DNA from: a virus
Length of the DNA stretch: 64,000 nucleotides
Direction: 5' to 3' (one strand)
Virus record (IMG/VR): IMGVR_UViG_3300031841_003468
Location: 1 to 64,000 of that record
The notes below the pieces were generated by a model. The model worked only from the letters and a program-made list of their open reading frames with translations. It was not told the DNA's origin and made no database searches. Below, one piece after another: positions 43,451 to 53,038 of this stretch. The position numbers were made by a program, and so were the translations under genes. Within the stretch, counting starts at the first letter, position 1. Each line of letters opens with the position of its first letter.

Positions 43451-45511
43451 TTAACCCTTGATCATATTGATGTAGTTGATAATGTCATCTCTCTGGTCTG
43501 AATTCATTCCCCAGCTACAAGCGTGCTTGAGCATTGGGTATGTCTTATTCATTATATCTATATTGTTCGACCAGTCAATAGATAATTCTTTAACTTCTTC
43601 TGAAAAATCTGCCATAATTCCCAGAGATTCTGCTCTAGTAGTCAAGAGCTTCCATGTATGGCCGATCTCAATCTCTGTTCCTGCAACGATATCCTTGTGG
43701 ATACTAGTGAACACAGGGCATCCGGTTTCGTCTGCGAGATATTTGATGTCCTCATGACTTAGACCATTAATGTAGTTCTCAGGCTTGGAAGAAACTCTAG
43801 CAATATTATGTATATTGTCAGCAACTTTTGCACGAATTAAATCTTCTAATTTATACGTTAGGTTGTGCCAGTTATCCTTGCTACCAATCTTCTTGCTCTT
43901 AGCAACAGAAGGAGTTAACTTGTGGAAGTTTGAGACATCTAGGTCTGGATCAATCCCTACTAATGCTCTAATAGTTTCCTCTACTCGGAATAAAGTCCAT
44001 CCATTCTTTCGGTTGATTAGATTGTCACGGGACACTTCGATGTAGTAGTGTACACCATCATTCATATCAATTTTAGTATCTACCCATGAGTTGTAACGCT
44101 CACCTGTTGCTGTTGGAATAGTAGCTACTCCACGCTTCCCACGAGCACCTGTGAATGTTCGAGTTGAATCAGGCTTAGCTAAGCTAGATGCCAGAACAAT
44201 GTCCTCATCAGTAGTACCAAGTATACTATGTACAGTAGACAGTGGCCAATCCTTAGAGATTAAGAAAGCAGAATCCCGGCCATGAATAGAACATCGTTCT
44301 TCTTCGATCATTAGTTTGACACGACTCACTGCGGCAGGAGCATCATTATATACCAAGGTGTGTTCTGCACGGACACTTGTAGGATTAAAGTTTGCAACCT
44401 TCTCTTTGTATGAATCCCACTTGTAACCCTTCATGAACCCTTCTGGAGTCCTAAGTGTTTTGTATGCATCCTCAAAGATAGGTACACCCTTCCACTCATT
44501 GACTTCATCGAAGATGTGTGATAGTGAGCTAACCAGTCGGAACTGCCTAGACGCAACAGTCAATGCCTTGCGAGCTTTCCAGAGAGAACCACATTCATCA
44601 ATCTCAACAGCAAGGTTCAATGCGATGTCTTCTACAAGTCGGTTGACAGCAGTATTGATAGCCTCGATTGTTTTAGGATTATATGATAAGCTCTCACGAG
44701 ATGGGGTAATGTCCATGTCTCCGATGTTGGCCAAGATAGCAATGGCAAAGCCAGAGTCAAGAATCTCACGAGTAACCCCACTGAAGTGCTCACGGTCAAT
44801 AGGGTATGAGATCTGACCCATGATAACACGATTTCCACCGTACTCGCTGATAGCCCATCCATCACCAGAGAATGTGTACTCGTAGTCATGGTAGTGTGCA
44901 TCAGCACCAACCATAGTTGGTCGAACAGTGAAGTGCTCAAAGATAACTTCAGCTTCAGTCCTAAAGTCCCAGCGATCTTCCTGTTTGGTATTAATAGTAA
45001 CCTTGAGACCACTTGGCTCATCACTAGGCTCAGAAGATAGCAAAGAAAAGACAGGCTCATTGTGCTCATTCTTGTAGGCAGTGTAAACACTATGAGTGCC
45101 AGCATGGAAAGATTCTACAATGAAGTTGTCAGTATAAGCAAATGGTGACTTACTACCCAGACCAAGACAGCCAACTGCATCATTGCTACTAGTCTTCGTA
45201 CTGCGGAAGTAGGTGGTATATAATGTTGTAGCATCTTCGTGGCTAAGACCATTACCGAAGTCACGGACATGGAACTCATGGTTGAGCTGAGTAGGCAAGC
45301 ATACCTCAAATGGTACGTCTGCATTGCCAGCTTCGACGTGTGCATCGTAAGCATTAGTAGATAGCTCACGCACAACAGCCTTGATTTTGTTAGAGTACAA
45401 TCCATCAGAAAGGATAGAAAAAGCCTTCGCAGTTGCCTCAATATTGAAGTTTGAGGTCTCGAAATCGCCAGATCGTACAACTTTATTCTGATTAATGTTT
45501 CCAAGTTTCAT
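43451..45511 (-). CDS. rIIA: rIIA-like protein (GHKL ATPase N-terminus)
   Basis: LYSNKIKAVVRELSTNAYDAH, VRDFGNGL, GCLGLGSKSPFAY, PSRESLSY; adjacent to rIIB. Confidence 0.9.
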   Translation of the reverse strand: MKLGNINQNKVVRSGDFETSNFNIEATAKAFSILSDGLYSNKIKAVVRELSTNAYDAHVEAGNADVPFEVCLPTQLNHEFHVRDFGNGLSHEDATTLYTTYFRSTKTSSNDAVGCLGLGSKSPFAYTDNFIVESFHAGTHSVYTAYKNEHNEPVFSLLSSEPSDEPSGLKVTINTKQEDRWDFRTEAEVIFEHFTVRPTMVGADAHYHDYEYTFSGDGWAISEYGGNRVIMGQISYPIDREHFSGVTREILDSGFAIAILANIGDMDITPSRESLSYNPKTIEAINTAVNRLVEDIALNLAVEIDECGSLWKARKALTVASRQFRLVSSLSHIFDEVNEWKGVPIFEDAYKTLRTPEGFMKGYKWDSYKEKVANFNPTSVRAEHTLVYNDAPAAVSRVKLMIEEERCSIHGRDSAFLISKDWPLSTVHSILGTTDEDIVLASSLAKPDSTRTFTGARGKRGVATIPTATGERYNSWVDTKIDMNDGVHYYIEVSRDNLINRKNGWTLFRVEETIRALVGIDPDLDVSNFHKLTPSVAKSKKIGSKDNWHNLTYKLEDLIRAKVADNIHNIARVSSKPENYINGLSHEDIKYLADETGCPVFTSIHKDIVAGTEIEIGHTWKLLTTRAESLGIMADFSEEVKELSIDWSNNIDIMNKTYPMLKHACSWGMNSDQRDDIINYINMIKG

Positions 45512-45557
45512 GTTAAAATCTCCGGTAAAAATAGTGTTTTTCGACTTGTATGCCCTA

Positions 45558-45585
45558 ATTATACATAGTTATCGGCATAAGTCAA
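45558..45585 (-). promoter_or_regulatory. rIIA promoter with CGATA spacer motif
   Basis: TTGACT-TATGC-CGATA-ACTATG-TATAAT. Confidence 0.8.
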
Positions 45586-45649
45586 ACAGAAATTTAGAAA
45601 AATTCAGAAAATTTATGTGCAATTTCCTGCATTCGTTTACATTATATGG

Positions 45650-45835
45650 GTGAAGACGAGGTGACAGCGACACGATGATCGAAAGATCACATACCTCATT
45701 CTTCACATTTCTCAACTCCCTTAATGTGTGTCCGATGAGGTACGGCATATTTACTTTTTATTACCTCATGAGAGTTTCGGCTCTCACGAACTCCCCCTTG
45801 GAGGCAGTAGATACCCCTCTGCTGCCTCCTTTTTT
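45650..45835 (+). ncRNA. Candidate structured RNA (two degenerate repeat units, GAAA and UUCG tetraloops, possible pseudoknot) ending in an intrinsic terminator
   Basis: Hairpins with GNRA/UUCG loops readable on + strand; ATGAGGTA/TACCTCAT complementarity. Confidence 0.6.
45800..45835 (+). terminator. Intrinsic terminator
   Basis: GGAGGCAGTAGA-TACCCC-TCTGCTGCCTCC-TTTTTT. Confidence 0.85.
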
Positions 45836-45852
45836 ATTTGTGAGGAAAACAA

Positions 45853-45987
45853 ATGAGGATGCGAAAGATCCATAAACGTGAGGTTTACAAAAAGTATGCC
45901 CAGTCAAATGTGACACAGCCAAAGAAGACAAGTCTTCCAAATGTAATTAGAACTCGGATTCAGAAAGTTAAAGATATGCTACTCTAG
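45853..45987 (+). CDS. Small basic protein (44 aa, not in ORF track)
   Basis: MRMRKIHKREVYKKYAQSNVTQPKKTSLPNVIRTRIQKVKDMLL; GAGGA RBS; stop overlaps the convergent minus-strand stop. Confidence 0.5.
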   Translation: MRMRKIHKREVYKKYAQSNVTQPKKTSLPNVIRTRIQKVKDMLL

Positions 45988-46325
45988 ATAGTATTCTTCT
46001 TTATGTCTCGTTCCTGAAGTTCCATTAACATATCAAATAAAGCTTTACCATTCTGGTTATTGATTATAATCTTTTCTTTATGGTCTTTAAGTGCTTCATC
46101 TATTAGCCGATCATTCTCGATTAGCTCTTCGACTGCATTCAACATATCATTATTATTATTGTTAGCAAAGTACATATTGCCAACACATAGACCTAGATTA
46201 GTTACAGTAGCAAGAAAGAGTAGCTTAATACCAAGAGGGTATCTTACTCTGTGTTTGATTTTTGCTCTGCCCTTTGATTCAGGTTCAGATGGTGCGGTTG
46301 GACTAAATCCTTGAATAGTTGCCAT
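45984..46325 (-). CDS. Single-TM coiled-coil protein
   Basis: Hydrophobic helix followed by coiled coil; GAGGAG RBS. Confidence 0.55.
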   Translation of the reverse strand: MATIQGFSPTAPSEPESKGRAKIKHRVRYPLGIKLLFLATVTNLGLCVGNMYFANNNNNDMLNAVEELIENDRLIDEALKDHKEKIIINNQNGKALFDMLMELQERDIKKNTI

Positions 46326-46844: not shown

Positions 46845-46932
46845 AATAATTCTCCTTTCTTGTCTTGTTGGGGGGTATAAGCGATTGACACTGGAACTTA
46901 ATCTGGTCTCTGGCCTATTCCCCCCATGTAAG

Positions 46933-47004
46933 TAGGGGATAGAGGAATCGAACCTCTATCGTCGGTTTAGAAGACCGATGTTCTATCCGTTGAACTAATC
47001 CCCC
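46933..47004 (-). tRNA. tRNA-Arg(UCU)
   Basis: Full cloverleaf; anticodon arm TCGGT-CTTCTAA-ACCGA; T-loop TTCGATT; no encoded CCA. Confidence 0.93.
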
Positions 47005-47016
47005 TCATGCCCTTAT

Positions 47017-47045
47017 ATTATATCGACATGCACAGGGATTGTCAA
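47017..47045 (-). promoter_or_regulatory. Consensus sigma-70 promoter for tRNA-Arg
   Basis: TTGACA-17nt-TATAAT. Confidence 0.85.
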
Positions 47046-47196
47046 CACTATTTATCGGTATTTTCAGAATTATTTTTGGCAGCAATTCTAGCTTGAGTTT
47101 CTGCTCGCTGTTTTTCTAGCATTTCACGACGAGCCTTCCAGTCAGTATCTGACGTGTTGCGACCATCATATGAAACGATGAATTTGTTATCAGCCA

Positions 47197-47388
47197 TTAT
47201 TCTTCTCCTTCTTTACTCTTCTTTAATGCTTTTGCTTTTAATGCTTCTAGTTCCTGCTCTAATAAGAACATTTCCTTTTCAGCGGTTCTTTTTCTACGAG
47301 ACAACACCTTGCGTTGTTCACGTCTTTTTTGGTGTTCTCTTTGTCTTTTGATTTGTTTCTTCTGTTTCTTTTTCGCTTTGTTATTCAT
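47197..47388 (-). CDS. Small Lys/Arg-rich protein
   Basis: 63 aa highly basic ORF, AAGGA RBS. Confidence 0.5.
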   Translation of the reverse strand: MNNKAKKKQKKQIKRQREHQKRREQRKVLSRRKRTAEKEMFLLEQELEALKAKALKKSKEGEE

Positions 47389-47418
47389 AATTATATATCC
47401 TTGTGGAAGTTTATCTAC

Positions 47419-47832
47419 TTAACCAATTTTAATTTCTTTAGGTTTTTTGTCTTCCGGGACGAAGTACTTCAGTACAATCTTTAGCAGCCCATCAATCATG
47501 TGAGCTCCTTCGACTTCCCAGTATTTAGGTATCATAAACTTCTTAACGAACTGCCTGTCAGCAATACCTTTATGTAGGTATTCAAATGCTGTAGACTGTT
47601 CATCAGCCTTGGTGTAGCTAATTGTTAAGCAGTTATTCTCAACAACTATCTTCAAGTCCTTCTTCTTTAATCCTGCAAGTGCCATCTCTACTGCAATAGT
47701 ATCGTCAGCTAACTTAATAATGTTGTGTGGTGGGTAACTCTGATTAGAGATCTTCTTTAGATCTTCAAACCAATCATCGAACCCTACTGTAAATGGCGAT
47801 AGCCAAGTTCTTAAAGTTTCTTTTTTATTCAT
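47419..47832 (-). CDS. Hsp20/IbpA small heat-shock protein
   Basis: GFD, YPPHNI, EMALAG, YLHKGIADRQF, DGLLKI, PEDKKPKEI. Confidence 0.92.
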   Translation of the reverse strand: MNKKETLRTWLSPFTVGFDDWFEDLKKISNQSYPPHNIIKLADDTIAVEMALAGLKKKDLKIVVENNCLTISYTKADEQSTAFEYLHKGIADRQFVKKFMIPKYWEVEGAHMIDGLLKIVLKYFVPEDKKPKEIKIG

Positions 47833-47905
47833 AATGCTCTCCTTTAATAAGCAAGTTGTAGAATACGCCCATTTAGGCACGCCTCCCACAAAGATATATA
47901 AATAA

Positions 47906-48208
47906 TTATTTACTTAGTAGTGCGATAGTAAATATACTATCGAAGTATTTAGTGACCCTGTTTTTGAAGCGGATCGCAACTTCTGGAAGTGTTAGTTCTA
48001 CAAAAGCGTATTTCTCTTTTACAGTAACTCTTCCTGTTATCATTATAGTGCCAAAGCGAGATTGAAACACAATAATATTGTTTTGTTTTGTTATTAACAG
48101 GTCTTTGCCCTTGAACTTAGTATTTATTTTATCTAAGCTTTTGGTCACCTGATTCATTGCTTCATGCTGTGACCATCCATGATCGTAACATTGGTTTATA
48201 GTTAACAT
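47906..48208 (-). CDS. Polyhydroxyalkanoic-acid-system (PHA granule region)-like protein
   Basis: I-x4-H-x-W-x3-EA start, ITGRVTV...VELTLP; size 100 aa. Confidence 0.45.
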   Translation of the reverse strand: MLTINQCYDHGWSQHEAMNQVTKSLDKINTKFKGKDLLITKQNNIIVFQSRFGTIMITGRVTVKEKYAFVELTLPEVAIRFKNRVTKYFDSIFTIALLSK

Positions 48209-48220
48209 TTCTCTTCTCCA

Positions 48221-49438
48221 TTATTTCCAGCCTCTTAGTAGTTGTCGGTAACCGTTTTCCCCCAAAAAACCCTTTACCTGTCTCTCAGAGTAACGTTGAC
48301 CCAGTAGGTATCTCGTTAGTCTATTTAACTGCGAAGCGTCTTGTATCTCATCTGGTGGGTCTGTGAAGCCATCTAGGTCTGAGCCTAAGGCAGGAACCTC
48401 TTCGCCACCATGTTTAATAATATGATTAATTGTTCGTTCTATATACTTAAGTCCAAGTGGAGTATCAATAGGGCTAATCCAGTAATTCATTAGGATTACA
48501 CCAAGAGTACATCCATGATCTCTAAACCATCCTAGTTCAGAGTTAGTCAAGTTGTATGGGTCAGGGTTGATATCAAAACATCCACCATGACTATTGATAA
48601 CACAGCTATCTTTCTTCTTGCTATCTACTATTTCATATACCTGCTGTCGTGCAAGTGGAGTACAGTGAGCAATATCGACAATCATGCCGAGATCAAGCAT
48701 CTCTTCAACGATGACTCTACCATACTCAGTAAGTCCTCTTGTGTGATCCCAATAATCAAACAAGACTTGTTTATCTGAATGCTTGAAAGCATATTCAGGA
48801 TAAGGGAATACTGGTTGCCCAGTAATGTTCGGGTAGAAGTGTTGAAGTGTAAGATAGGCAACTCCACGATCCTTGAAGTGTCTCAAGTTTGCAATCGCTT
48901 CGTCTAGCATCTCTTGGTTGGTTTGCTCATGGAAGAACTCTTCTTCTTTACCGCACACAGTATGCTGTAAAGCGTGAGCTCCCTCGATAGCATGAACAAA
49001 AGCCATCCTCTGTTTATTGTCTGTACTACGAAGCTCTTCAGGTGTCTTACAAACTACAGCGTCAAAGGATTCATCTGACACAGCCAGTTTGTCTTCCAAC
49101 CAATCAAGTTGCATGTTATAAGCTTCAAAGTAAGTAGGATCGGCAATCCGTTGTCTGGTTTTTTTGGATAGCTTAACTAAGAAGCCAGCTAAACCAATAT
49201 GTTCGTACCATCCTGCTTCGGGTATAAATGCAGTATTAAGAACAACATTATAACCACCTTCTTTGAGTTTAGGTAAAGTGTTTCTGGCACTCAACGGCTG
49301 GAAGCCCTCAAGAAACCATTTTGAAAACATCTTTAACTTGCTACCATCAAGCTCTCTGCCATACATGTATGACTTAAGAGCAATGTGGTTATGCCAGTCA
49401 AGAACCAGTGAGTTATTATGAAATTCTTTATAGTCCAT
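48221..49438 (-). CDS. Membrane/renal dipeptidase (peptidase M19, amidohydrolase)
   Basis: DWHNH, IEGAH, YLTLQH, GLTEYG, VDIAH, NSH, LGSDLDG. Confidence 0.85.
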   Translation of the reverse strand: MDYKEFHNNSLVLDWHNHIALKSYMYGRELDGSKLKMFSKWFLEGFQPLSARNTLPKLKEGGYNVVLNTAFIPEAGWYEHIGLAGFLVKLSKKTRQRIADPTYFEAYNMQLDWLEDKLAVSDESFDAVVCKTPEELRSTDNKQRMAFVHAIEGAHALQHTVCGKEEEFFHEQTNQEMLDEAIANLRHFKDRGVAYLTLQHFYPNITGQPVFPYPEYAFKHSDKQVLFDYWDHTRGLTEYGRVIVEEMLDLGMIVDIAHCTPLARQQVYEIVDSKKKDSCVINSHGGCFDINPDPYNLTNSELGWFRDHGCTLGVILMNYWISPIDTPLGLKYIERTINHIIKHGGEEVPALGSDLDGFTDPPDEIQDASQLNRLTRYLLGQRYSERQVKGFLGENGYRQLLRGWK

Positions 49439-49439
49439 T

Positions 49440-49751
49440 TTAGCTACCTGTAAATCCCTTGATCTTTTCTAGAATACCACCCAGTCCACCTAGATTAGAT
49501 AGTCCACCGCTTGAAACGATGAAATAAATAGCGATACCTAAGCCTAACAAGAACACGAGCCATTTTCTTTTTTGAGCTACTGCCTTAGCCTTCTCTGTTA
49601 GTTCAGCGATCTTAGCTAGACGGTATTCTCTCTTCTCATTTTTCTTGTTTGAGCGATCTTCTTTTCTTTGTTCTTTTGCGTCTTCCTTAGTAGAAACTTC
49701 ACCTTCTACTACTTCTACATCTTTGTTTTTTCGTTTTCCAAATAATGGCAT
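49440..49751 (-). CDS. Membrane protein with charged N-terminus
   Basis: MPLFGKRK start; C-terminal TM. Confidence 0.55.
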   Translation of the reverse strand: MPLFGKRKNKDVEVVEGEVSTKEDAKEQRKEDRSNKKNEKREYRLAKIAELTEKAKAVAQKRKWLVFLLGLGIAIYFIVSSGGLSNLGGLGGILEKIKGFTGS

Positions 49752-49876
49752 TATGCACATCCTTCTATTAAAATTGATATCCCGGCCAATATAATAATCA
49801 ACCCAACCAGAGCGTAAGCTCCTAAACATTGATTCCCAGCACTTGGATCGCCGCCGTTACAAAAACAGCGGTGCAT
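49751..49876 (-). CDS. Small membrane peptide (41 aa, not in ORF track)
   Basis: MHRCFCNGGDPSAGNQCLGAYALVGLIIILAGISILIEGCA; GGGAG RBS; TAATG coupling. Confidence 0.5.
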   Translation of the reverse strand: MHRCFCNGGDPSAGNQCLGAYALVGLIIILAGISILIEGCA

Positions 49877-49965
49877 CTTAAACACTCCCATGAGAAACAG
49901 TGGTTGCCTAATATATTATACACTGGAAATGGGAAAAAGTCACGGGTTTTTTGTAAAAAAATACC

Positions 49966-49998
49966 AAAAAAAATAGGGGGCAGATTGCTCTACCCCCT
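49966..49998 (-). terminator. Intrinsic terminator
   Basis: AGGGGGTAGA-GCAA-TCTGCCCCCT-ATTTTTTTT. Confidence 0.85.
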
Positions 49999-50140
49999 TA
50001 GATTGTTTACTTCGTTCTGTCCTTTATGGCTGATGTTATCATCCCTGTGCAAGATATAATAGTTATACAAACCCAGATTACAATATTAACAGTCACATTA
50101 CAAGTCATATAGACCCTCCTAAACTAAGTAATAAACAATA

Positions 50141-50569
50141 CTATTGTACGTCTGCAAGTAGTTCACTGGAAGATTGTGTCTTACCTCCTCCTACGTTGTA
50201 AGCAGTCTCGACATCGTTCTTTGCACAGTATACTTCCTCTGGAGTGTTACCGGCAACTCTATCTCCACCATTAGCAAAGATAACAGTTTCAACTTCGTCT
50301 CCTGCATGTTCAACAATCATAGCCAGACTTTCTACAACTGTCCCATCTTTATCAATAGAGACAACTGCTGCGTCTACTGCCGAAAGTGACTCAACAATTC
50401 TTGTCCTGTCCTCAGCATTCATAAATGGAACACTTCCTTTGATCTTAACCTGATCGTCATTGTTAACAATAACTATTAAGTAGTCCCCAAGTTCTTTGGC
50501 TGCTTCGATATAATCTAAATGTCCACAGTGTAGGGGATTGAAGTATCCTGAAATAACTACTAGCTTCAT
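50141..50569 (-). CDS. Cytidylyltransferase-family protein (TagD/RfaE-II-like)
   Basis: SGYFNPLHCGH (HxGH), LIVIVNND, FANGGDR, GGKTQSSS. Confidence 0.9.
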   Translation of the reverse strand: MKLVVISGYFNPLHCGHLDYIEAAKELGDYLIVIVNNDDQVKIKGSVPFMNAEDRTRIVESLSAVDAAVVSIDKDGTVVESLAMIVEHAGDEVETVIFANGGDRVAGNTPEEVYCAKNDVETAYNVGGGKTQSSSELLADVQ

Positions 50570-50696
50570 TGTGATTTTCCTTGAGTATGCTTATGAATAT
50601 CCTCGACTAATACTACCAACATTATACCCCACAGAAGTTCCTGTGGTACGATAAAAGGTAGGCCTAATGCTAAAGTATAGCCAATGATTCTAAACA

Positions 50697-50930
50697 TTAT
50701 TTAATAGTCCAAAATTTGAATTTATTTAATCGCTTCGGTTTATCGTCACCCATTAACTTATCTTCAAAGTCTTTATATTGATGCCATCCAGTATTCTTGA
50801 AATCAGGCACTGGTGGCTCACAATCCAATTCCTCATGAACGTGAAACATCTGCTCAGCCGGGATCTTAAAGTCCGACTTAGCAAATGGATTAAAGGGTAG
50901 TAATAAACCTAGCAGTAATAAAGTCTTCAT
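50697..50930 (-). CDS. Hypothetical protein with signal-peptide-like N-terminus
   Basis: MKTLLLLGLLLPF; AGGAG RBS. Confidence 0.5.
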   Translation of the reverse strand: MKTLLLLGLLLPFNPFAKSDFKIPAEQMFHVHEELDCEPPVPDFKNTGWHQYKDFEDKLMGDDKPKRLNKFKFWTIK

Positions 50931-50966
50931 AGCTGTCTCCTATAAAAGTTTATTATAACTAGTAAG

Positions 50967-51315
50967 TGGACGTGGAGGGAGTTGCACCCTCGTCTCTCAT
51001 GTCTCCTTGTTAACATTCTACGTACATAGTCTCGTGTTATCGCACACAAGCCCAAGCTAAGATAGTTTGACTATCAACAGCCTCAATACATGTAGGAGGC
51101 ATCAACCTGTTTGTCCTCAGGTGGAGCAAGCCAAATACGTCTTGGCAACGTCACTCATTGGGTAACAAGGCCGAGTGAAGCCCCTGCCGCCTAAGCAGCT
51201 AGTGAGAAGTTCTTTTCTGCACTTAAAAGTTTTGGTCAAGTTTTATAGTGGCCTCTTGACCAACCACTATACGCAGTTAACAGTTACAACACAGATCGAA
51301 TCTAGTGTCACGCCC
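50967..51315 (-). ncRNA. ssrA: tmRNA, tag (A)AEKNFSLAA*
   Basis: Acceptor GGGCGTG/CACGTCC-A with G3:U70; 5' GATTCGA; pk1; resume context TTAAGT-GCA; tag ORF 51191-51220; T-arm GAGGG-TGCAACT-CCCTC. Confidence 0.95.
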
Positions 51316-51320
51316 GTAAG

Positions 51321-51393
51321 AGCTTCGAGTGGGAGTCGAACCCACAACCTCATCATTACTAATGATGTGCTCTGCCGATTGAGCTATCGAAGC
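51321..51393 (-). tRNA. tRNA-Thr(AGU)
   Basis: Full cloverleaf; anticodon arm CATCA-TTAGTAA-TGATG. Confidence 0.92.
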
Positions 51394-51406
51394 AACAGCT
51401 TTGTTC

Positions 51407-51661
51407 TTACTCTATACACATTTCGCATCTACATCCCTCAGTGCATCCTTGTAGCTCGCAACAACTACAACACGCTTGGTTAGTGCTTTTGTGCGTATGT
51501 CTAATGGGTGTGGTAATTGCCCCTGCCCCATCTTGGCTCGCATACATGTTAAATAATAAATCCATCGAGACCATAATAAACATACTAGTAAAACAAAACA
51601 AAATAATAATGGTAAGCTGTTCAGTCGCTGTCAATTTTCCCGATTCACTTGCCATTATCAT
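51407..51661 (-). CDS. TM protein with Cys-rich (metallothionein-like) tail
   Basis: TM helix; CCSCCELQGCTEGCRCEMC. Confidence 0.5.
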   Translation of the reverse strand: MIMASESGKLTATEQLTIIILFCFTSMFIMVSMDLLFNMYASQDGAGAITTPIRHTHKSTNQACCSCCELQGCTEGCRCEMCIE

Positions 51662-51920
51662 GTTTCCAATCTAAGTTATTCCATATTTCCCTGAACCTTG
51701 CCCAAGTCTTAAGAGATTCTTCTTTTGCTACCTTCCTTAAGTAGTCTTCTTCAACCTCTTCTCTGATCTTTACAGTAGTATATATTGTATCTGCTTCAGA
51801 CCTGACTTGATCCAGTTCTTTCCTTAACTCTGTATTATTATACAACATAGTGCATAAATTTGCAACACTAAAAAGCAACAATACACAAATTAATATGGTA
51901 TTTCTTGATGTTTTATTCAT
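51645..51920 (-). CDS. Single-TM coiled-coil protein
   Basis: N-terminal TM then heptads. Confidence 0.5.
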   Translation of the reverse strand: MNKTSRNTILICVLLLFSVANLCTMLYNNTELRKELDQVRSEADTIYTTVKIREEVEEDYLRKVAKEESLKTWARFREIWNNLDWKHDNGK

Positions 51921-51949
51921 ACTTCCTTCTCCCTTTCTGAATAATATAG

Positions 51950-52022
51950 TACCCCGTAGGAGAATCGAACTCCTGTTTTCGGCGTGAAAAGCCGATGTCC
52001 TAGTCCACTAGACGAACGGGGC
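51950..52022 (-). tRNA. tRNA-Glu(UUC)
   Basis: Anticodon arm TCGGC-TTTTCAC-GCCGA; full cloverleaf. Confidence 0.93.
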
Positions 52023-52098
52023 ATTTGTTGACCTGAGTCACACAGGTCTGAGGTTGTCGTTTATTTATGAGATTCTATACCTCTAATGTACATCTCAG

Positions 52099-52170
52099 AG
52101 CGACAGGAGGGGATCGAACCCTCGACATTCACGTTGGCAACGTGATGCTCTACCGCTGAGCTACTATCGC
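52099..52170 (-). tRNA. tRNA-Gly(GCC)
   Basis: Anticodon arm TCACG-TTGCCAA-CGTGA; U73. Confidence 0.93.
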
Positions 52171-52199
52171 TTAGGGAAAGTGAGATGGTGGCGAACCCA

Positions 52200-52352
52200 T
52201 CAATCACGACCGTCGTCGTTACTCTCACGCCTATTTGAGTCACCTTCGTTTGTATCATGTCGAGGCCAGTTTACAATCTGTTCGATTGTTCGTCTGCATC
52301 CAGTGCACACACCATTTACTAAGGCACATTTGCCAGTACAAGGTGAATCCAT
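52200..52352 (-). CDS. DUF1289-like small Cys protein (50 aa, not in ORF track)
   Basis: MDSPCTGKCALVNGVCTGCRRTIEQIVNW matches SPCxxxC...CxGCxRTxxxIxxW; AGGA RBS. Confidence 0.75.
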   Translation of the reverse strand: MDSPCTGKCALVNGVCTGCRRTIEQIVNWPRHDTNEGDSNRRESNDDGRD

Positions 52353-52464
52353 TACTATCCTGAACCTCAACATTTGTATAAAGAGTTTGCCGCCAGAGGG
52401 GAGTAAACTTGCTACACACGGTCATAACAAGGTATTTGGCGAAGGTGACGACAAACTCGTTGTA

Positions 52465-52941
52465 TTATAGTTTCTTACGGTGGCTGTGAGTTGGAGTCTG
52501 GCTGTGACAATTAGGACATAAGTACCTTAAGTTCTCAGGTCGGTTGTCAACCGGGCTTCCATTGATGTGGTCTATCTCAAGTGTTATGGCTTTGCCAAGC
52601 CACACACCATCTATTCCACACCACTCACATTCGTAGTCTCGGCCAATTTCATCAAGTGCTCTAACTAATCTAGCTCTTGAGTCCTTGCGTCCATTAAGCC
52701 TGTTGTTAACAAGGACTGCTTCGGCTGGTAGTCTGTTGTTTGCTACCTTACCTTTGTTGTGTCCTTGTCCAGTAAAATGGCTAGTATCTATACCAAACTC
52801 TTTGGCCTTCTTCTTGAGGTGATGAACTGATCCACCACCAAGTTTCAAACCTAAGTGACCAAGTACTTGAGCCCATGAGGTTGATTTATTTATTACCTCT
52901 TGAAGTTCTTCCTTAGTTCGTCTGTTATAGTTTCTTGTCAT
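52465..52941 (-). CDS. HNH endonuclease in tRNA cluster
   Basis: CEWCG...LEIDHING...DNRPENLRYLCPNCHSQT. Confidence 0.9.
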   Translation of the reverse strand: MTRNYNRRTKEELQEVINKSTSWAQVLGHLGLKLGGGSVHHLKKKAKEFGIDTSHFTGQGHNKGKVANNRLPAEAVLVNNRLNGRKDSRARLVRALDEIGRDYECEWCGIDGVWLGKAITLEIDHINGSPVDNRPENLRYLCPNCHSQTPTHSHRKKL

Positions 52942-52955
52942 AGTACTTTCCTTAG

Positions 52956-53038
52956 TACCCGCAGAAGGACTCGAACCTTCACGCCTCTCGGCATATGATC
53001 CTAAATCATACGTGTCTACCTGATTCCACCATGCGGGC
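52956..53038 (-). tRNA. tRNA-Leu(UAG)
   Basis: Anticodon arm TATGA-TTTAGGA-TCATA; long variable arm GCC-GAGA-GGC; A73. Confidence 0.93.

What the first reader, a model, noticed from the sequence alone, without database searches (positions are those of the whole stretch)
45650..45987. Lone plus-strand unit: tandem structured RNA, terminator, then a 44-aa basic ORF (candidate new riboswitch/attenuator or sRNA)
Seen: this is the only convincing plus-strand unit in 64 kb, divergent from the rIIA promoter. It holds two degenerate ~70-nt copies sharing GAYGAGGT(G)ACRGC ... TACCTCAT ... TCTCA..ACTCCC..TT. Copy 1 folds as GTGAAGA/TCTTCAC + GAGGT/ACCTC with a TGATC-GAAA-GATCA cap. In copy 2, the stem GTGTG(T)CCG/CGGCATAT displays loop ATGAGGTA (45735-42), perfectly complementary to TACCTCAT both downstream (45762-69, H-type pseudoknot) and in copy 1 (45692-99), so mutually exclusive folds are possible. 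A UUCG hairpin follows, then a C-rich tract able to pair with the GGAGG arm of a 12-bp intrinsic terminator, then an RBS and the ORF. Knowledge: tandem aptamer + terminator + gene is riboswitch architecture, and pseudoknot repeats + terminator + gene is type III toxin-antitoxin architecture. Inference: an undescribed regulatory RNA (ligand/protein sensor, antitoxin-RNA mimic, or anti-Shine-Dalgarno sRNA using its CUCCC/ACCUC tracts). I could not match it by eye to a known riboswitch or ribozyme.
Basis: partly seen in the sequence, partly recalled or inferred. Interest (0 to 1): 0.8.

Follow-up and report, generated by a model that had tools for sequence, protein, structure and literature searches.

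The report
Conserved phage small RNA plus micro-gene
An uncultured marine T4-like phage carries, back to back with its rIIA gene, a strongly conserved ~190-base folded RNA that ends at the strongest terminator in the genome and is followed by a real 44-codon gene. It matches no known RNA family, and I found no sign of a riboswitch mechanism.

Summary
On the plus strand there is a 57-nt three-helix 5' domain, a UUCG hairpin and a 12-bp terminator with a U-tract, the most stable predicted in the 153.7-kb genome. There are also two TACCTCAT copies with one ATGAGGTA (6 of 5000 shuffles show such a triple).

The main new evidence comes from five related metagenome contigs:
- The RNA core (45650-45799) is identical in three lineages.
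- In a fourth it differs by 1 substitution and 2 single-base indels, where neutral sites differ by 16-25%.
- All three helix substitutions keep pairing through G-U on the plus strand only.
- The 44-aa ORF changes at codon positions 11/4/24, so it is a real, fast-evolving gene. It has no room for its own promoter, so it must be read through the terminator.

Not supported:
- The "two ~70-nt copies" are weak (p 0.04-0.15).
- There is no antiterminator; alternatives are 16-18 kcal/mol worse.
- No double-sided covariation is available.
- No homologue was found in Rfam, IMG/VR, JGI metagenomes, GTDB genomes or 81 rIIA-related phage loci.

Best reading: a lineage-restricted phage small RNA that also serves as leader of a micro-gene, with IsrK-like architecture. 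The function is untested. A second such unit lies at ~69.7 kb. This scan noted the stretch once before, on the same DNA.

The parts
45616..45647 (+). Candidate plus-strand promoter: (T)GTGCAA - 17 nt - CATTAT, or TGTGCA - 16 nt - TACATT. The predicted start is at about 45650-45652.
   Evidence: It is only a 7/12 match to the sigma-70 consensus and was not listed by the promoter scan. Both hexamer regions are invariant in all relatives, while part of the spacer (45626-45630) varies. The context ATTATRTGG is shared with the second plus-strand RNA of the genome. The promoter is inferred, not shown.
45650..45706 (+). 5' domain: P1 GUGAAGA/UCUUCAC, P2 GAGGUG/UACCUC, a 12-nt asymmetric internal loop ACAGCGACACGA, and P3 UGAUC-GAAA-GAUCA.
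   Evidence: -18.9 kcal/mol, z -3.2. In the L002 lineage A45693G turns U-A into U-G, which would be A-C on the minus strand. The deletion of T45676 only removes the outermost pair of P3.
45707..45769 (+). Middle region: the C/U-rich tract UUUCUCAACUCCCUUAAU, a small hairpin presenting AUGAGGUA (45735-45742), the A/U-rich tract AUAUUUACUUUUUAUUA, and the second UACCUCAU (45762-45769).
   Evidence: Invariant in five contigs apart from one inserted A. Three-way 8-mer complementarity has p about 0.001. The fold is not better than shuffles, so the pairing scheme is unresolved. The minimum-energy fold pairs 45692-45700 with 45734-45742 and 45658-45664 with 45761-45767. The local model is 5 kcal/mol higher.
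45770..45799 (+). UUCG-capped hairpin GAGAGU-UUCG-GCUCUC, then the single-stranded tract ACGAACUCCCCCUU.
   Evidence: -9.9 kcal/mol, z -2.3. Invariant in all relatives.
45800..45839 (+). Intrinsic terminator: a 12-bp stem, 6-nt loop and U-tract.
   Evidence: In the L002 lineage two stem substitutions give G-C to G-U and U-G to U-A, and one change lies in the loop. No T-run follows on the minus strand.
45853..45987 (+). Gene for a 44-aa strongly basic protein. The RBS GAGGA is at 45842-45846. Its stop codon overlaps the stop of the convergent 113-aa gene (CTAG).
   Evidence: It is open and 44 codons long in all six sequences. Differences from L002 by codon position are 11/4/24, with 13 synonymous and 15 non-synonymous codons. 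Indels occur only upstream of the ATG. No homologue outside its own cluster was found among 1.84 billion representatives. Pfam, PHROGs, PADLOC, PDB and the ESM Atlas gave nothing. AlphaFold gave a low-confidence helical hairpin, pLDDT 64.
45558..45585 (-). Divergent rIIA promoter, TTGACT-16-TATAAT.
   Evidence: An 11/12 match. It lies about 30 bp from the candidate plus-strand -35 region.

Best explanation
This is a plus-strand transcription unit with two outputs. It sits back to back with the rIIA promoter in a narrow lineage of uncultured marine T4-like phages.

Transcription probably starts at about 45650 and mostly stops at the very strong terminator (45800-45839). That gives a stable ~185-190-nt small RNA with four parts:
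- a 5' three-helix domain;
- exposed C/U-rich tracts that resemble the anti-Shine-Dalgarno sequence (CUCAACUCCCUU, ACGAACUCCCCCUU, UACCUCAU x2);
- an A/U-rich stretch;
- a terminator hairpin with a U-tail.

The fraction of transcripts that reads through becomes the mRNA of a 44-aa basic protein. That gene has no room for a promoter of its own, since only 13-21 nt lie between the U-tract and the ATG.

Shown: the element is on the plus strand, is non-coding, and is under very strong purifying selection. The small gene is real.

Inferred: the promoter, the RNA ends, and read-through as the source of the mRNA.

Proposed: the short RNA is itself the main functional product. It would act by base pairing or protein binding through its invariant single-stranded tracts. 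The terminator would keep the micro-protein at a low level. This is the architecture documented for IsrK of prophage Gifsy-1.
For: (1) Conservation. Four-fold degenerate sites in rIIA, rIIB and orf171 differ by 16-25% between the window and L002, and by 5-7% between the window and L004. The 150-nt core 45650-45799 shows 1 substitution plus 2 single-base indels against L002/L003, and none against L004/L005, L131 and L132. About 30 and about 9 differences would be expected if neutral. The flanks are less conserved: about 11% for 45555-45649 and about 29% for the ORF.

(2) Non-coding. The single-base indels and the loss of the only ATG rule out a conserved ORF on either strand.

(3) Strand. All three helix substitutions keep a standard pair through G-U on the plus strand, and two of them would give A-C on the minus strand. 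The U-tract is on the plus strand only.

(4) The terminator is the strongest in the genome, and no competing fold comes within 16-18 kcal/mol. That fits a constitutive sRNA 3' end.

(5) The ORF is a real gene, by its codon-position pattern and constant length. It lies 13-21 nt behind the U-tract.

(6) A second plus-strand unit in the same genome has the same design: a conserved multi-hairpin RNA, a strong terminator, an SD and a gene. It shares the ATTATRTGG start context.

(7) The IsrK precedent: an sRNA, terminator read-through and a 45-aa ORF (PMC4825925).
Against: - No transcript evidence. The only RNA-library signal is one 151-nt contig of depth 2 in an oligo-dT library, covering 45657-45808. 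It could equally be contaminating DNA.
- The promoter is a poor sigma-70 match.
- No target was found. Duplex energies against the phage's own translation start regions are no better than for shuffled RNAs. blastn found only chance-level complementarity. The host is unknown.
- No double-sided covariation exists, because the sequences are almost identical. The secondary structure beyond the 5' domain, the UUCG hairpin and the terminator therefore remains a prediction.
- Near-total invariance could also reflect a constraint I have not identified, such as a protein-binding array or use of both strands.
- The short leader-ORF complementarities (8-11 nt) are not kept in L002. An IsrK-type pairing between the short RNA and its long isoform is therefore not supported.
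Confidence: 0.45

Rival explanations
1. It is a purely cis-acting leader. The structured RNA is a platform for protein- or RNA-mediated processive antitermination or attenuation, and this decides when the 44-aa gene is expressed. Possible models are HK022 put-like or lambda nut-like sites, or P4 CI/seqA-seqB-seqC-like RNA-RNA pairing using the central AUGAGGUA and its two flanking UACCUCAU partners. The terminated RNA would be a by-product.
For: The gene can only be expressed through the terminator. Four segments can pair in two exclusive ways: GAGGUG at 45658, UACCUCAU at 45692, AUGAGGUA at 45735, and UACCUCAU at 45762. The 8-mer triple is non-random. A second terminator-gated gene in the same genome suggests a shared control logic.
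Against: The leader (2% divergence) is far more constrained than the gene it would serve (29% nucleotide, 34% amino-acid divergence), which is unusual for a mere control region. Neither alternative pairing touches the terminator. No antiterminator protein was identified next to it. Rfam, which includes the C4 antisense RNA family by my recollection, gave no hit. The two leaders share no sequence similarity.
Confidence: 0.28
2. It is a metabolite-sensing, possibly tandem, transcriptional riboswitch of a new class controlling the 44-aa gene.
For: The order is structured RNA, then terminator, then gene. The 5' domain has a large invariant internal loop that could form a pocket. There is no Rfam match, so it would be a new class.
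Against: There is no expression platform: with either terminator arm blocked, the best fold is 16-18 kcal/mol less stable. The aptamer domain lies 95 nt upstream of the terminator with no complementary bridge. The element is restricted to one phage lineage, whereas riboswitch classes are widespread. The regulated product is an orphan basic micro-protein, not an enzyme or transporter. The tandem-copy similarity is weak.
Confidence: 0.06
3. It is a cis-antisense or insulator element. The plus-strand RNA exists to pair with, or collide with, minus-strand read-through transcripts running from the upstream genes (orf171, orf113) into rIIA. That would uncouple rIIA from upstream transcription or create an RNase III processing site.
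For: No minus-strand terminator lies between orf113 (which ends at 45984) and rIIA, so read-through antisense to this unit is likely. The unit sits exactly between the two. The convergent stop codons overlap.
Against: Perfect antisense pairing needs no sequence conservation or internal structure, yet the core is nearly invariant and its helix substitutions preserve intramolecular plus-strand pairs. This model does not explain the 44-aa gene.
Confidence: 0.1
4. It is a DNA-level element, such as protein-binding sites (three 8-bp TACCTCAT sites in alternating orientation), a replication origin or another cis site, and not a functional RNA.
For: Three copies of an 8-bp word lie within 78 bp. Invariance extends to predicted single-stranded parts. 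ACCTCAT arrays occur as iteron-like repeats in unrelated metagenome contigs.
Against: A canonical strong intrinsic terminator lies at the end, with plus-strand-specific G-U-preserving changes. The stable 5' domain is unrelated to the 8-mers. One 8-mer copy changes in L002 (TGCCTCAT) in a way that keeps RNA pairing. The downstream gene needs a plus-strand transcript through this region.
Confidence: 0.06
5. It is a type III toxin-antitoxin locus or a phage-borne antitoxin-RNA mimic: pseudoknot repeats, a terminator and a toxin.
For: The order of repeat-like RNA, terminator and gene matches toxIN architecture.
Against: The repeats are not significantly similar and are about 70 nt long, not near-identical 34-45-nt units. 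The product is 44 aa with no ToxN/AbiE-like or any PADLOC or Pfam match. This is a lytic T4-like phage context.
Confidence: 0.02

Closest known systems
IsrK sRNA / isrK-orf45-anrP locus of Salmonella prophage Gifsy-1 (PMC4825925)
   Same: A phage-borne small RNA ends at a rho-independent terminator. A subset of transcripts reads through and becomes the mRNA of a directly following micro-ORF (45 aa there, 44 aa here). Alternative RNA conformations are possible in the leader.
   Different: There is no sequence similarity. IsrK is shorter and is followed by anrP, with antQ upstream. In IsrK the middle of the sRNA pairs with about 30 nt of orf45; here the only leader-ORF complementarities are 8-11 nt and are not conserved. 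IsrK lies in a temperate prophage, this unit in a lytic T4-like phage. The function here is untested.
C-rich ('UCCC motif') anti-Shine-Dalgarno sRNAs such as RsaE/RoxS of Firmicutes, and Hfq-type sRNAs in general (from memory)
   Same: Repeated unpaired C-rich tracts are complementary to GGAG/GGGAG ribosome-binding sites. There is an A/U-rich stretch, and a strong terminator hairpin with a U-tail forms the 3' end.
   Different: No homology to these families (no Rfam hit). No target was identified. The host, and whether it has Hfq, is unknown. This RNA is longer, at about 190 nt.
P4 CI RNA (seqB pairing with seqA and seqC) and P1/P7 c4 antisense RNA (from memory; no paper describing the seqA-seqB-seqC arrangement was found)
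   Same: One central element is complementary to two flanking direct repeats within the same transcript. Those phages use such an arrangement to control downstream expression or termination.
   Different: No Rfam hit of any kind. The complementary elements here are only 8 nt long. There is no immunity context, and no evidence of processing.
Transcriptional riboswitches and tandem aptamers (e.g. glycine)
   Same: The order is structured RNA, intrinsic terminator, then gene.
   Different: There is no antiterminator, no wide distribution, no metabolic gene, and only a weak internal repeat.
ToxIN-type type III toxin-antitoxin loci
   Same: A promoter, an RNA with repeat-like units, a terminator, then a gene.
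   Different: No true tandem repeats and no ToxN-like toxin.

Membership tests
Any Rfam 15 family (riboswitches, ribozymes, sRNAs, C4 antisense RNA, crcB, hammerhead and others) | A covariance-model match at or near the gathering score. | tested here: not met
   No match at the gathering threshold in the window except tmRNA and five tRNAs. With E up to 10 on 45450-46050, only noise was found, and nothing covers 45650-45733.
Transcriptional riboswitch | An expression platform: a terminator that competes with an antiterminator formed with part of the aptamer. | tested here: not met
   Blocking the 5' or the 3' terminator arm gives best folds of -43.9 and -46.5 kcal/mol, against -62.4. The adjacent C-tract makes only 4 bp with GGAG.
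Transcriptional riboswitch | An aptamer conserved across many taxa, with covarying stems. | tested here: not met
   It is found only in the window's lineage and four close relatives. It is absent from 81 rIIA-related loci, IMG/VR, JGI metagenomes and GTDB genomes. There are zero double-sided changes.
Transcriptional riboswitch | Ligand binding. | not testable with these tools
   This needs in-line probing, SHAPE or ITC.
Type III toxin-antitoxin (ToxIN, CptIN, TenpIN) | Tandem near-identical repeats of 34-45 nt. | tested here: not met
   The two halves align no better than shuffles locally (p 0.15) and only marginally globally (p 0.04).
Type III toxin-antitoxin (ToxIN, CptIN, TenpIN) | A downstream endoribonuclease toxin of about 170 aa. 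| tested here: not met
   The product is 44 aa and has no Pfam, PHROG or PADLOC match.
Trans-acting sRNA with an intrinsic terminator (Hfq type) | A rho-independent terminator with a U-tail as the 3' end. | tested here: met
   A 12-bp stem followed by 6-8 U, conserved with pair-preserving changes.
Trans-acting sRNA with an intrinsic terminator (Hfq type) | Its own promoter and a discrete transcript. | tested here: inconclusive
   There is only a weak sigma-70 match (7/12) in a conserved block. One 151-nt contig in an RNA library shows nothing about ends or strand.
Trans-acting sRNA with an intrinsic terminator (Hfq type) | A conserved seed complementary to target mRNAs. | tested here: inconclusive
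   The single-stranded C-rich tracts are invariant. No phage target stands out above shuffles. Host targets cannot be tested because the host is unknown.
IsrK-like dual sRNA/mRNA locus | An sRNA terminator followed directly by a micro-ORF that lacks its own promoter. | tested here: met
   Only 13-21 nt lie between the U-tract and the ATG in all lineages, and the ORF is under coding selection.
IsrK-like dual sRNA/mRNA locus | Conserved pairing between the sRNA body and the ORF region. | tested here: not met
   The 8-11-nt complementarities (I5, I7, I9) are disrupted in L002.

The most novel reading that the evidence does not exclude
The two plus-strand RNAs of this phage (45650-45839 and ~69660-69835) may form a small RNA-RNA control circuit. 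RNA-1 would switch between two pairings of its GAGGUG / UACCUCAU / AUGAGGUA / UACCUCAU segments. Through its exposed internal loop (CGAGGUGACAGCGA, 13 of 14 complementary to the segment abutting the terminator of RNA-2), it would control read-through or translation of the Tat-exported M10 peptidase gene as well as of its own 44-aa gene. That would be an RNA-only timing device for terminator-gated accessory genes in a lytic phage.
Probability: 0.1. Interest if true: 0.7.

Novelty: new member of a known kind. Interest (0 to 1): 0.4.

Why it matters
Few regulatory RNAs are known from lytic T4-like phages, and almost none from uncultured marine ones. This RNA's sequence is held almost constant while the neighbouring genes drift by 15-30%, so the RNA itself matters to the phage. 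The same design (conserved structured RNA, strong terminator, accessory gene) occurs twice in the genome. That points to a reusable way of gating genes that run against the flow of the early region.

The element is confined to one rare lineage with no cultured host, and neither a target nor a ligand can be named. For now the value is a well-defined candidate for metatranscriptome mining, not a new mechanism.

Tried and rejected
RNA HOMOLOGUE SEARCHES (all negative)
- Exact and gapped motif scans of IMG/VR.
- A rIIA-guided harvest of 81 related viral loci, then nhmmer, a scan for divergent terminators and covariance model R1.
- A three-part motif scan of JGI metagenomes gave 44 hits. All were unrelated, including a 76-nt family in human-gut (among other) metagenome contigs and ACCTCAT arrays, and none matched by nhmmer.
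- A motif scan of GTDB genomes found nothing.

44-AA PROTEIN
- No relatives in 1.84 billion representatives apart from its own cluster.
- Nothing in Pfam, PHROGs, PADLOC, PDB or the ESM Atlas.
- The AlphaFold model (pLDDT 64) is too weak for a fold search.

EXPRESSION
- One RNA run (X1, oligo-dT) holds a 151-nt contig over 45657-45808 and a 241-nt contig over 45310-45550, both of the L002 type and at depth about 2.
- Two metatranscriptomes from another study held nothing.
- Contigs show neither strand, ends nor level, and DNA carry-over cannot be excluded.

TARGET PREDICTION
- RNAduplex against all predicted translation starts was no better than shuffled RNA.
- blastn-short against the genome gave only chance-level hits.
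- Unrestricted duplexfold of RNA-1 against RNA-2 gave z -3.6, but the long-loop duplex is physically meaningless. A strict local alignment leaves only the 13/14 match (p about 0.01, with higher scores elsewhere in the genome).

OTHER IDEAS REJECTED
- A leader peptide, or hidden ORFs on either strand: rejected because of the indels and the lost ATG.
- Hammerhead, fluoride-riboswitch-like, boxA/boxB, 16S 3'-end mimic, tetraloop-receptor and group II D5 resemblances, seen by eye or at E 0.24. None was supported by Rfam or by conservation.
- A minus-strand promoter using the TATAAT at 45646..45641: it has no -35.
Full report
CONTEXT

The window is the first 64 kb of a 153.7-kb IMG/VR virus record, 99% complete by CheckV and 40% G+C. 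Genes from 0 to about 85 kb run on the minus strand, and the late genes on the plus strand. The ORF at 43451-45511(-) is an rIIA homologue, with tblastn E down to 6e-59 against annotated rIIA genes and identity of 27-31% over the longer matches. The next gene is rIIB (PF26926 in the relatives). No cultured phage is close. By rIIA, the nearest public sequences are marine metagenome contigs at 94% and 85% amino-acid identity, and then nothing until 39%.

WHAT IS THERE

The 472-bp gap between rIIA and the next minus-strand gene (orf113, 45984-46325) holds the following.
- On the minus strand: a near-consensus rIIA promoter (45585..45558).
- On the plus strand: a 12-bp hairpin plus U-tract (45800-45839). 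It is the only strong terminator-like site in the region and the most stable one I could find in the whole genome (-21.6 kcal/mol).
- Upstream of the terminator, the plus strand folds into three elements:
  - a well-defined 57-nt 5' domain (45650-45706; -18.9 kcal/mol, z -3.2);
  - a poorly defined middle part;
  - a UUCG-capped hairpin (z -2.3).
- The whole pre-terminator RNA is only moderately more stable than shuffles (z -2.1). The impressive z of -4.8 for the full unit is mostly the terminator.

The claimed duplication into two ~70-nt copies is not statistically convincing. Rfam gives nothing at the gathering score or at E up to 10.

COMPARATIVE EVIDENCE

Five contigs from four related lineages cover the locus:
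- L004/L005 (Tara);
- L131;
- L132;
- L002/L003.

Neutral divergence at four-fold degenerate sites of rIIA, rIIB and orf171 is 16-25% against L002 and 5-7% against L004. Against that background:
- The RNA core 45650-45799 is identical in L004, L005, L131 and L132.
- It differs from L002/L003 by one substitution and two single-base indels.
- The stretch between the two promoters differs by about 11%, the terminator by 3 of 30 positions, and the 44-codon ORF by 29%.

The indels, and the loss of the only internal ATG, exclude a conserved reading frame through the RNA region.

All three substitutions that fall in predicted helices keep a standard pair on the plus strand:
- U-A to U-G in P2;
- G-C to G-U in the terminator;
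- U-G to U-A in the terminator.

Two of these would become A-C mismatches on the minus strand. This is weak but consistent evidence for a plus-strand RNA. There is not a single double-sided change, so the structure cannot be tested by covariation.

THE SMALL ORF

It is open and exactly 44 codons long in all six sequences. Differences from L002 fall 11/4/24 on codon positions 1/2/3, with 13 synonymous and 15 non-synonymous codons. Length variation stops at its ATG. It is therefore a real, fast-evolving gene for a very basic protein, predicted with low confidence to be a helical hairpin. It has no detectable relatives or family.

Only 13-21 nt separate the U-tract from the ATG, and the RBS lies in that gap. 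The mRNA must therefore start upstream of the terminator. The structured RNA is thus at least its leader, and expression requires read-through.

WHAT IT IS NOT

- Not a classical riboswitch or attenuator.
  - No upstream segment can compete with the terminator; alternatives are 16-18 kcal/mol less stable.
  - The two alternative pairings of the GAGGUG / UACCUCAU / AUGAGGUA / UACCUCAU segments do not involve the terminator.
  - No leader peptide is conserved.
  - The element does not occur outside this lineage.
- Not a type III toxin-antitoxin locus. It has no real repeats and no toxin-like product.

MOST LIKELY MECHANISM

A weak or phage-specific promoter lies in a conserved block: (T)GTGCAA-17-CATTAT, a 7/12 match. 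It would start transcription at about 45650.
- Most transcripts end at the terminator, giving a ~190-nt RNA.
- A minority continue into the 44-aa gene.

The RNA is far more constrained than the protein, including its predicted single-stranded C/U-rich and A/U-rich tracts. I therefore think the short RNA is the main functional product and acts through sequence-specific contacts, either base pairing with Shine-Dalgarno-like targets or binding a protein. The terminator would dose the micro-protein.

The documented precedent for this architecture is IsrK of prophage Gifsy-1. There the terminated sRNA and its read-through isoform carrying a 45-aa ORF are both functional (PMC4825925). Unlike IsrK, I found no conserved pairing between the RNA body and the ORF.

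I put about 0.45 on this reading and 0.28 on a purely cis-acting antitermination or attenuation leader. The other rivals each get 0.1 or less. That the element is a real, selected plus-strand RNA with a real gene behind it I hold at about 0.85.

RELATED OBSERVATION

The genome has a second plus-strand unit of the same design inside the minus-strand half, at ~69,660-70,610.
- It starts with a conserved ~170-nt multi-hairpin RNA (z -4.4, no Rfam hit).
- A strong terminator follows, then an SD and a gene for an M10 peptidase whose N-terminus looks like a Tat signal.
- A second terminator closes the unit.
- It is conserved in relatives, with one both-sides change that keeps a pair, G-C to U-G.
- It shares the ATTATRTGG context at the predicted start.
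- Its segment next to the terminator is 13 of 14 complementary to 45657-45670 of RNA-1. That stretch covers the P2 5' strand and the internal loop.

The match has p about 0.01 for this pair of RNAs but is not exceptional genome-wide. Another first-stage note had seen the same match. I treat it as a lead only.

EXPRESSION DATA

One oligo-dT RNA library holds a 151-nt contig over 45657-45808 at depth 2. This shows neither strand nor ends, and it may be DNA carry-over.

VERDICT

This is a real and strongly conserved, lineage-restricted phage RNA with an attached micro-gene. It is a new member of the known kind 'sRNA / read-through leader'. The riboswitch and toxin-antitoxin readings are not supported, and the function is untested. 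This scan had noted the same stretch once before, on the same genome.

Noticed in passing
G000 69,660-70,610 (L133:1160-2110), beyond the window: A second plus-strand unit: a conserved ~170-nt multi-hairpin RNA (z -4.4, no Rfam hit), a strong terminator, and a gene for an M10 matrixin-type peptidase (PF00413, 4.8e-29) whose N-terminus looks like a Tat signal, closed by another terminator. Relatives (L134-L140) keep it and show one G-C to U-G change on both sides of a pair.
   Followed up: partly
window 45657-45670 versus G000 69782-69795: There is 13 of 14 complementarity between the two plus-strand RNAs. Both segments are invariant in relatives. The match has p about 0.01 for the pair but is not exceptional genome-wide.
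   Followed up: partly
window 45984-46325 (-): orf113 is a fast-evolving gene, only 55-67% nucleotide identity to L002 where the neighbours are 85-95%. By eye its sequence has a hydrophobic stretch (residues ~33-50) that could span a membrane (not tested). Its stop codon overlaps the stop of the 44-aa gene in a CTAG palindrome.
   Followed up: no
window 45586-45618: Between the two divergent promoters lie A-rich direct repeats (CAGAAATTTAGAAAAAT / GAAAAATTCAGAAAATT) and a 10-nt imperfect inverted repeat. The right arm is changed in L002, so it is probably not a conserved operator.
   Followed up: partly
L087-L127 (metagenome contigs, several labelled human gut): A family of near-identical ~200-nt sequences has CCTCAT...ATGAGGTAC...TACCTCAT at the same 76-nt spacing as the query motif. 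It is otherwise unrelated to this RNA and was hit by chance.
   Followed up: no
window 50964-51393 and 46932-53038: The phage encodes a tmRNA (84.9 bits) directly next to tRNA-Thr(AGT), plus four more tRNAs. Other first-stage notes already cover this.
   Followed up: no
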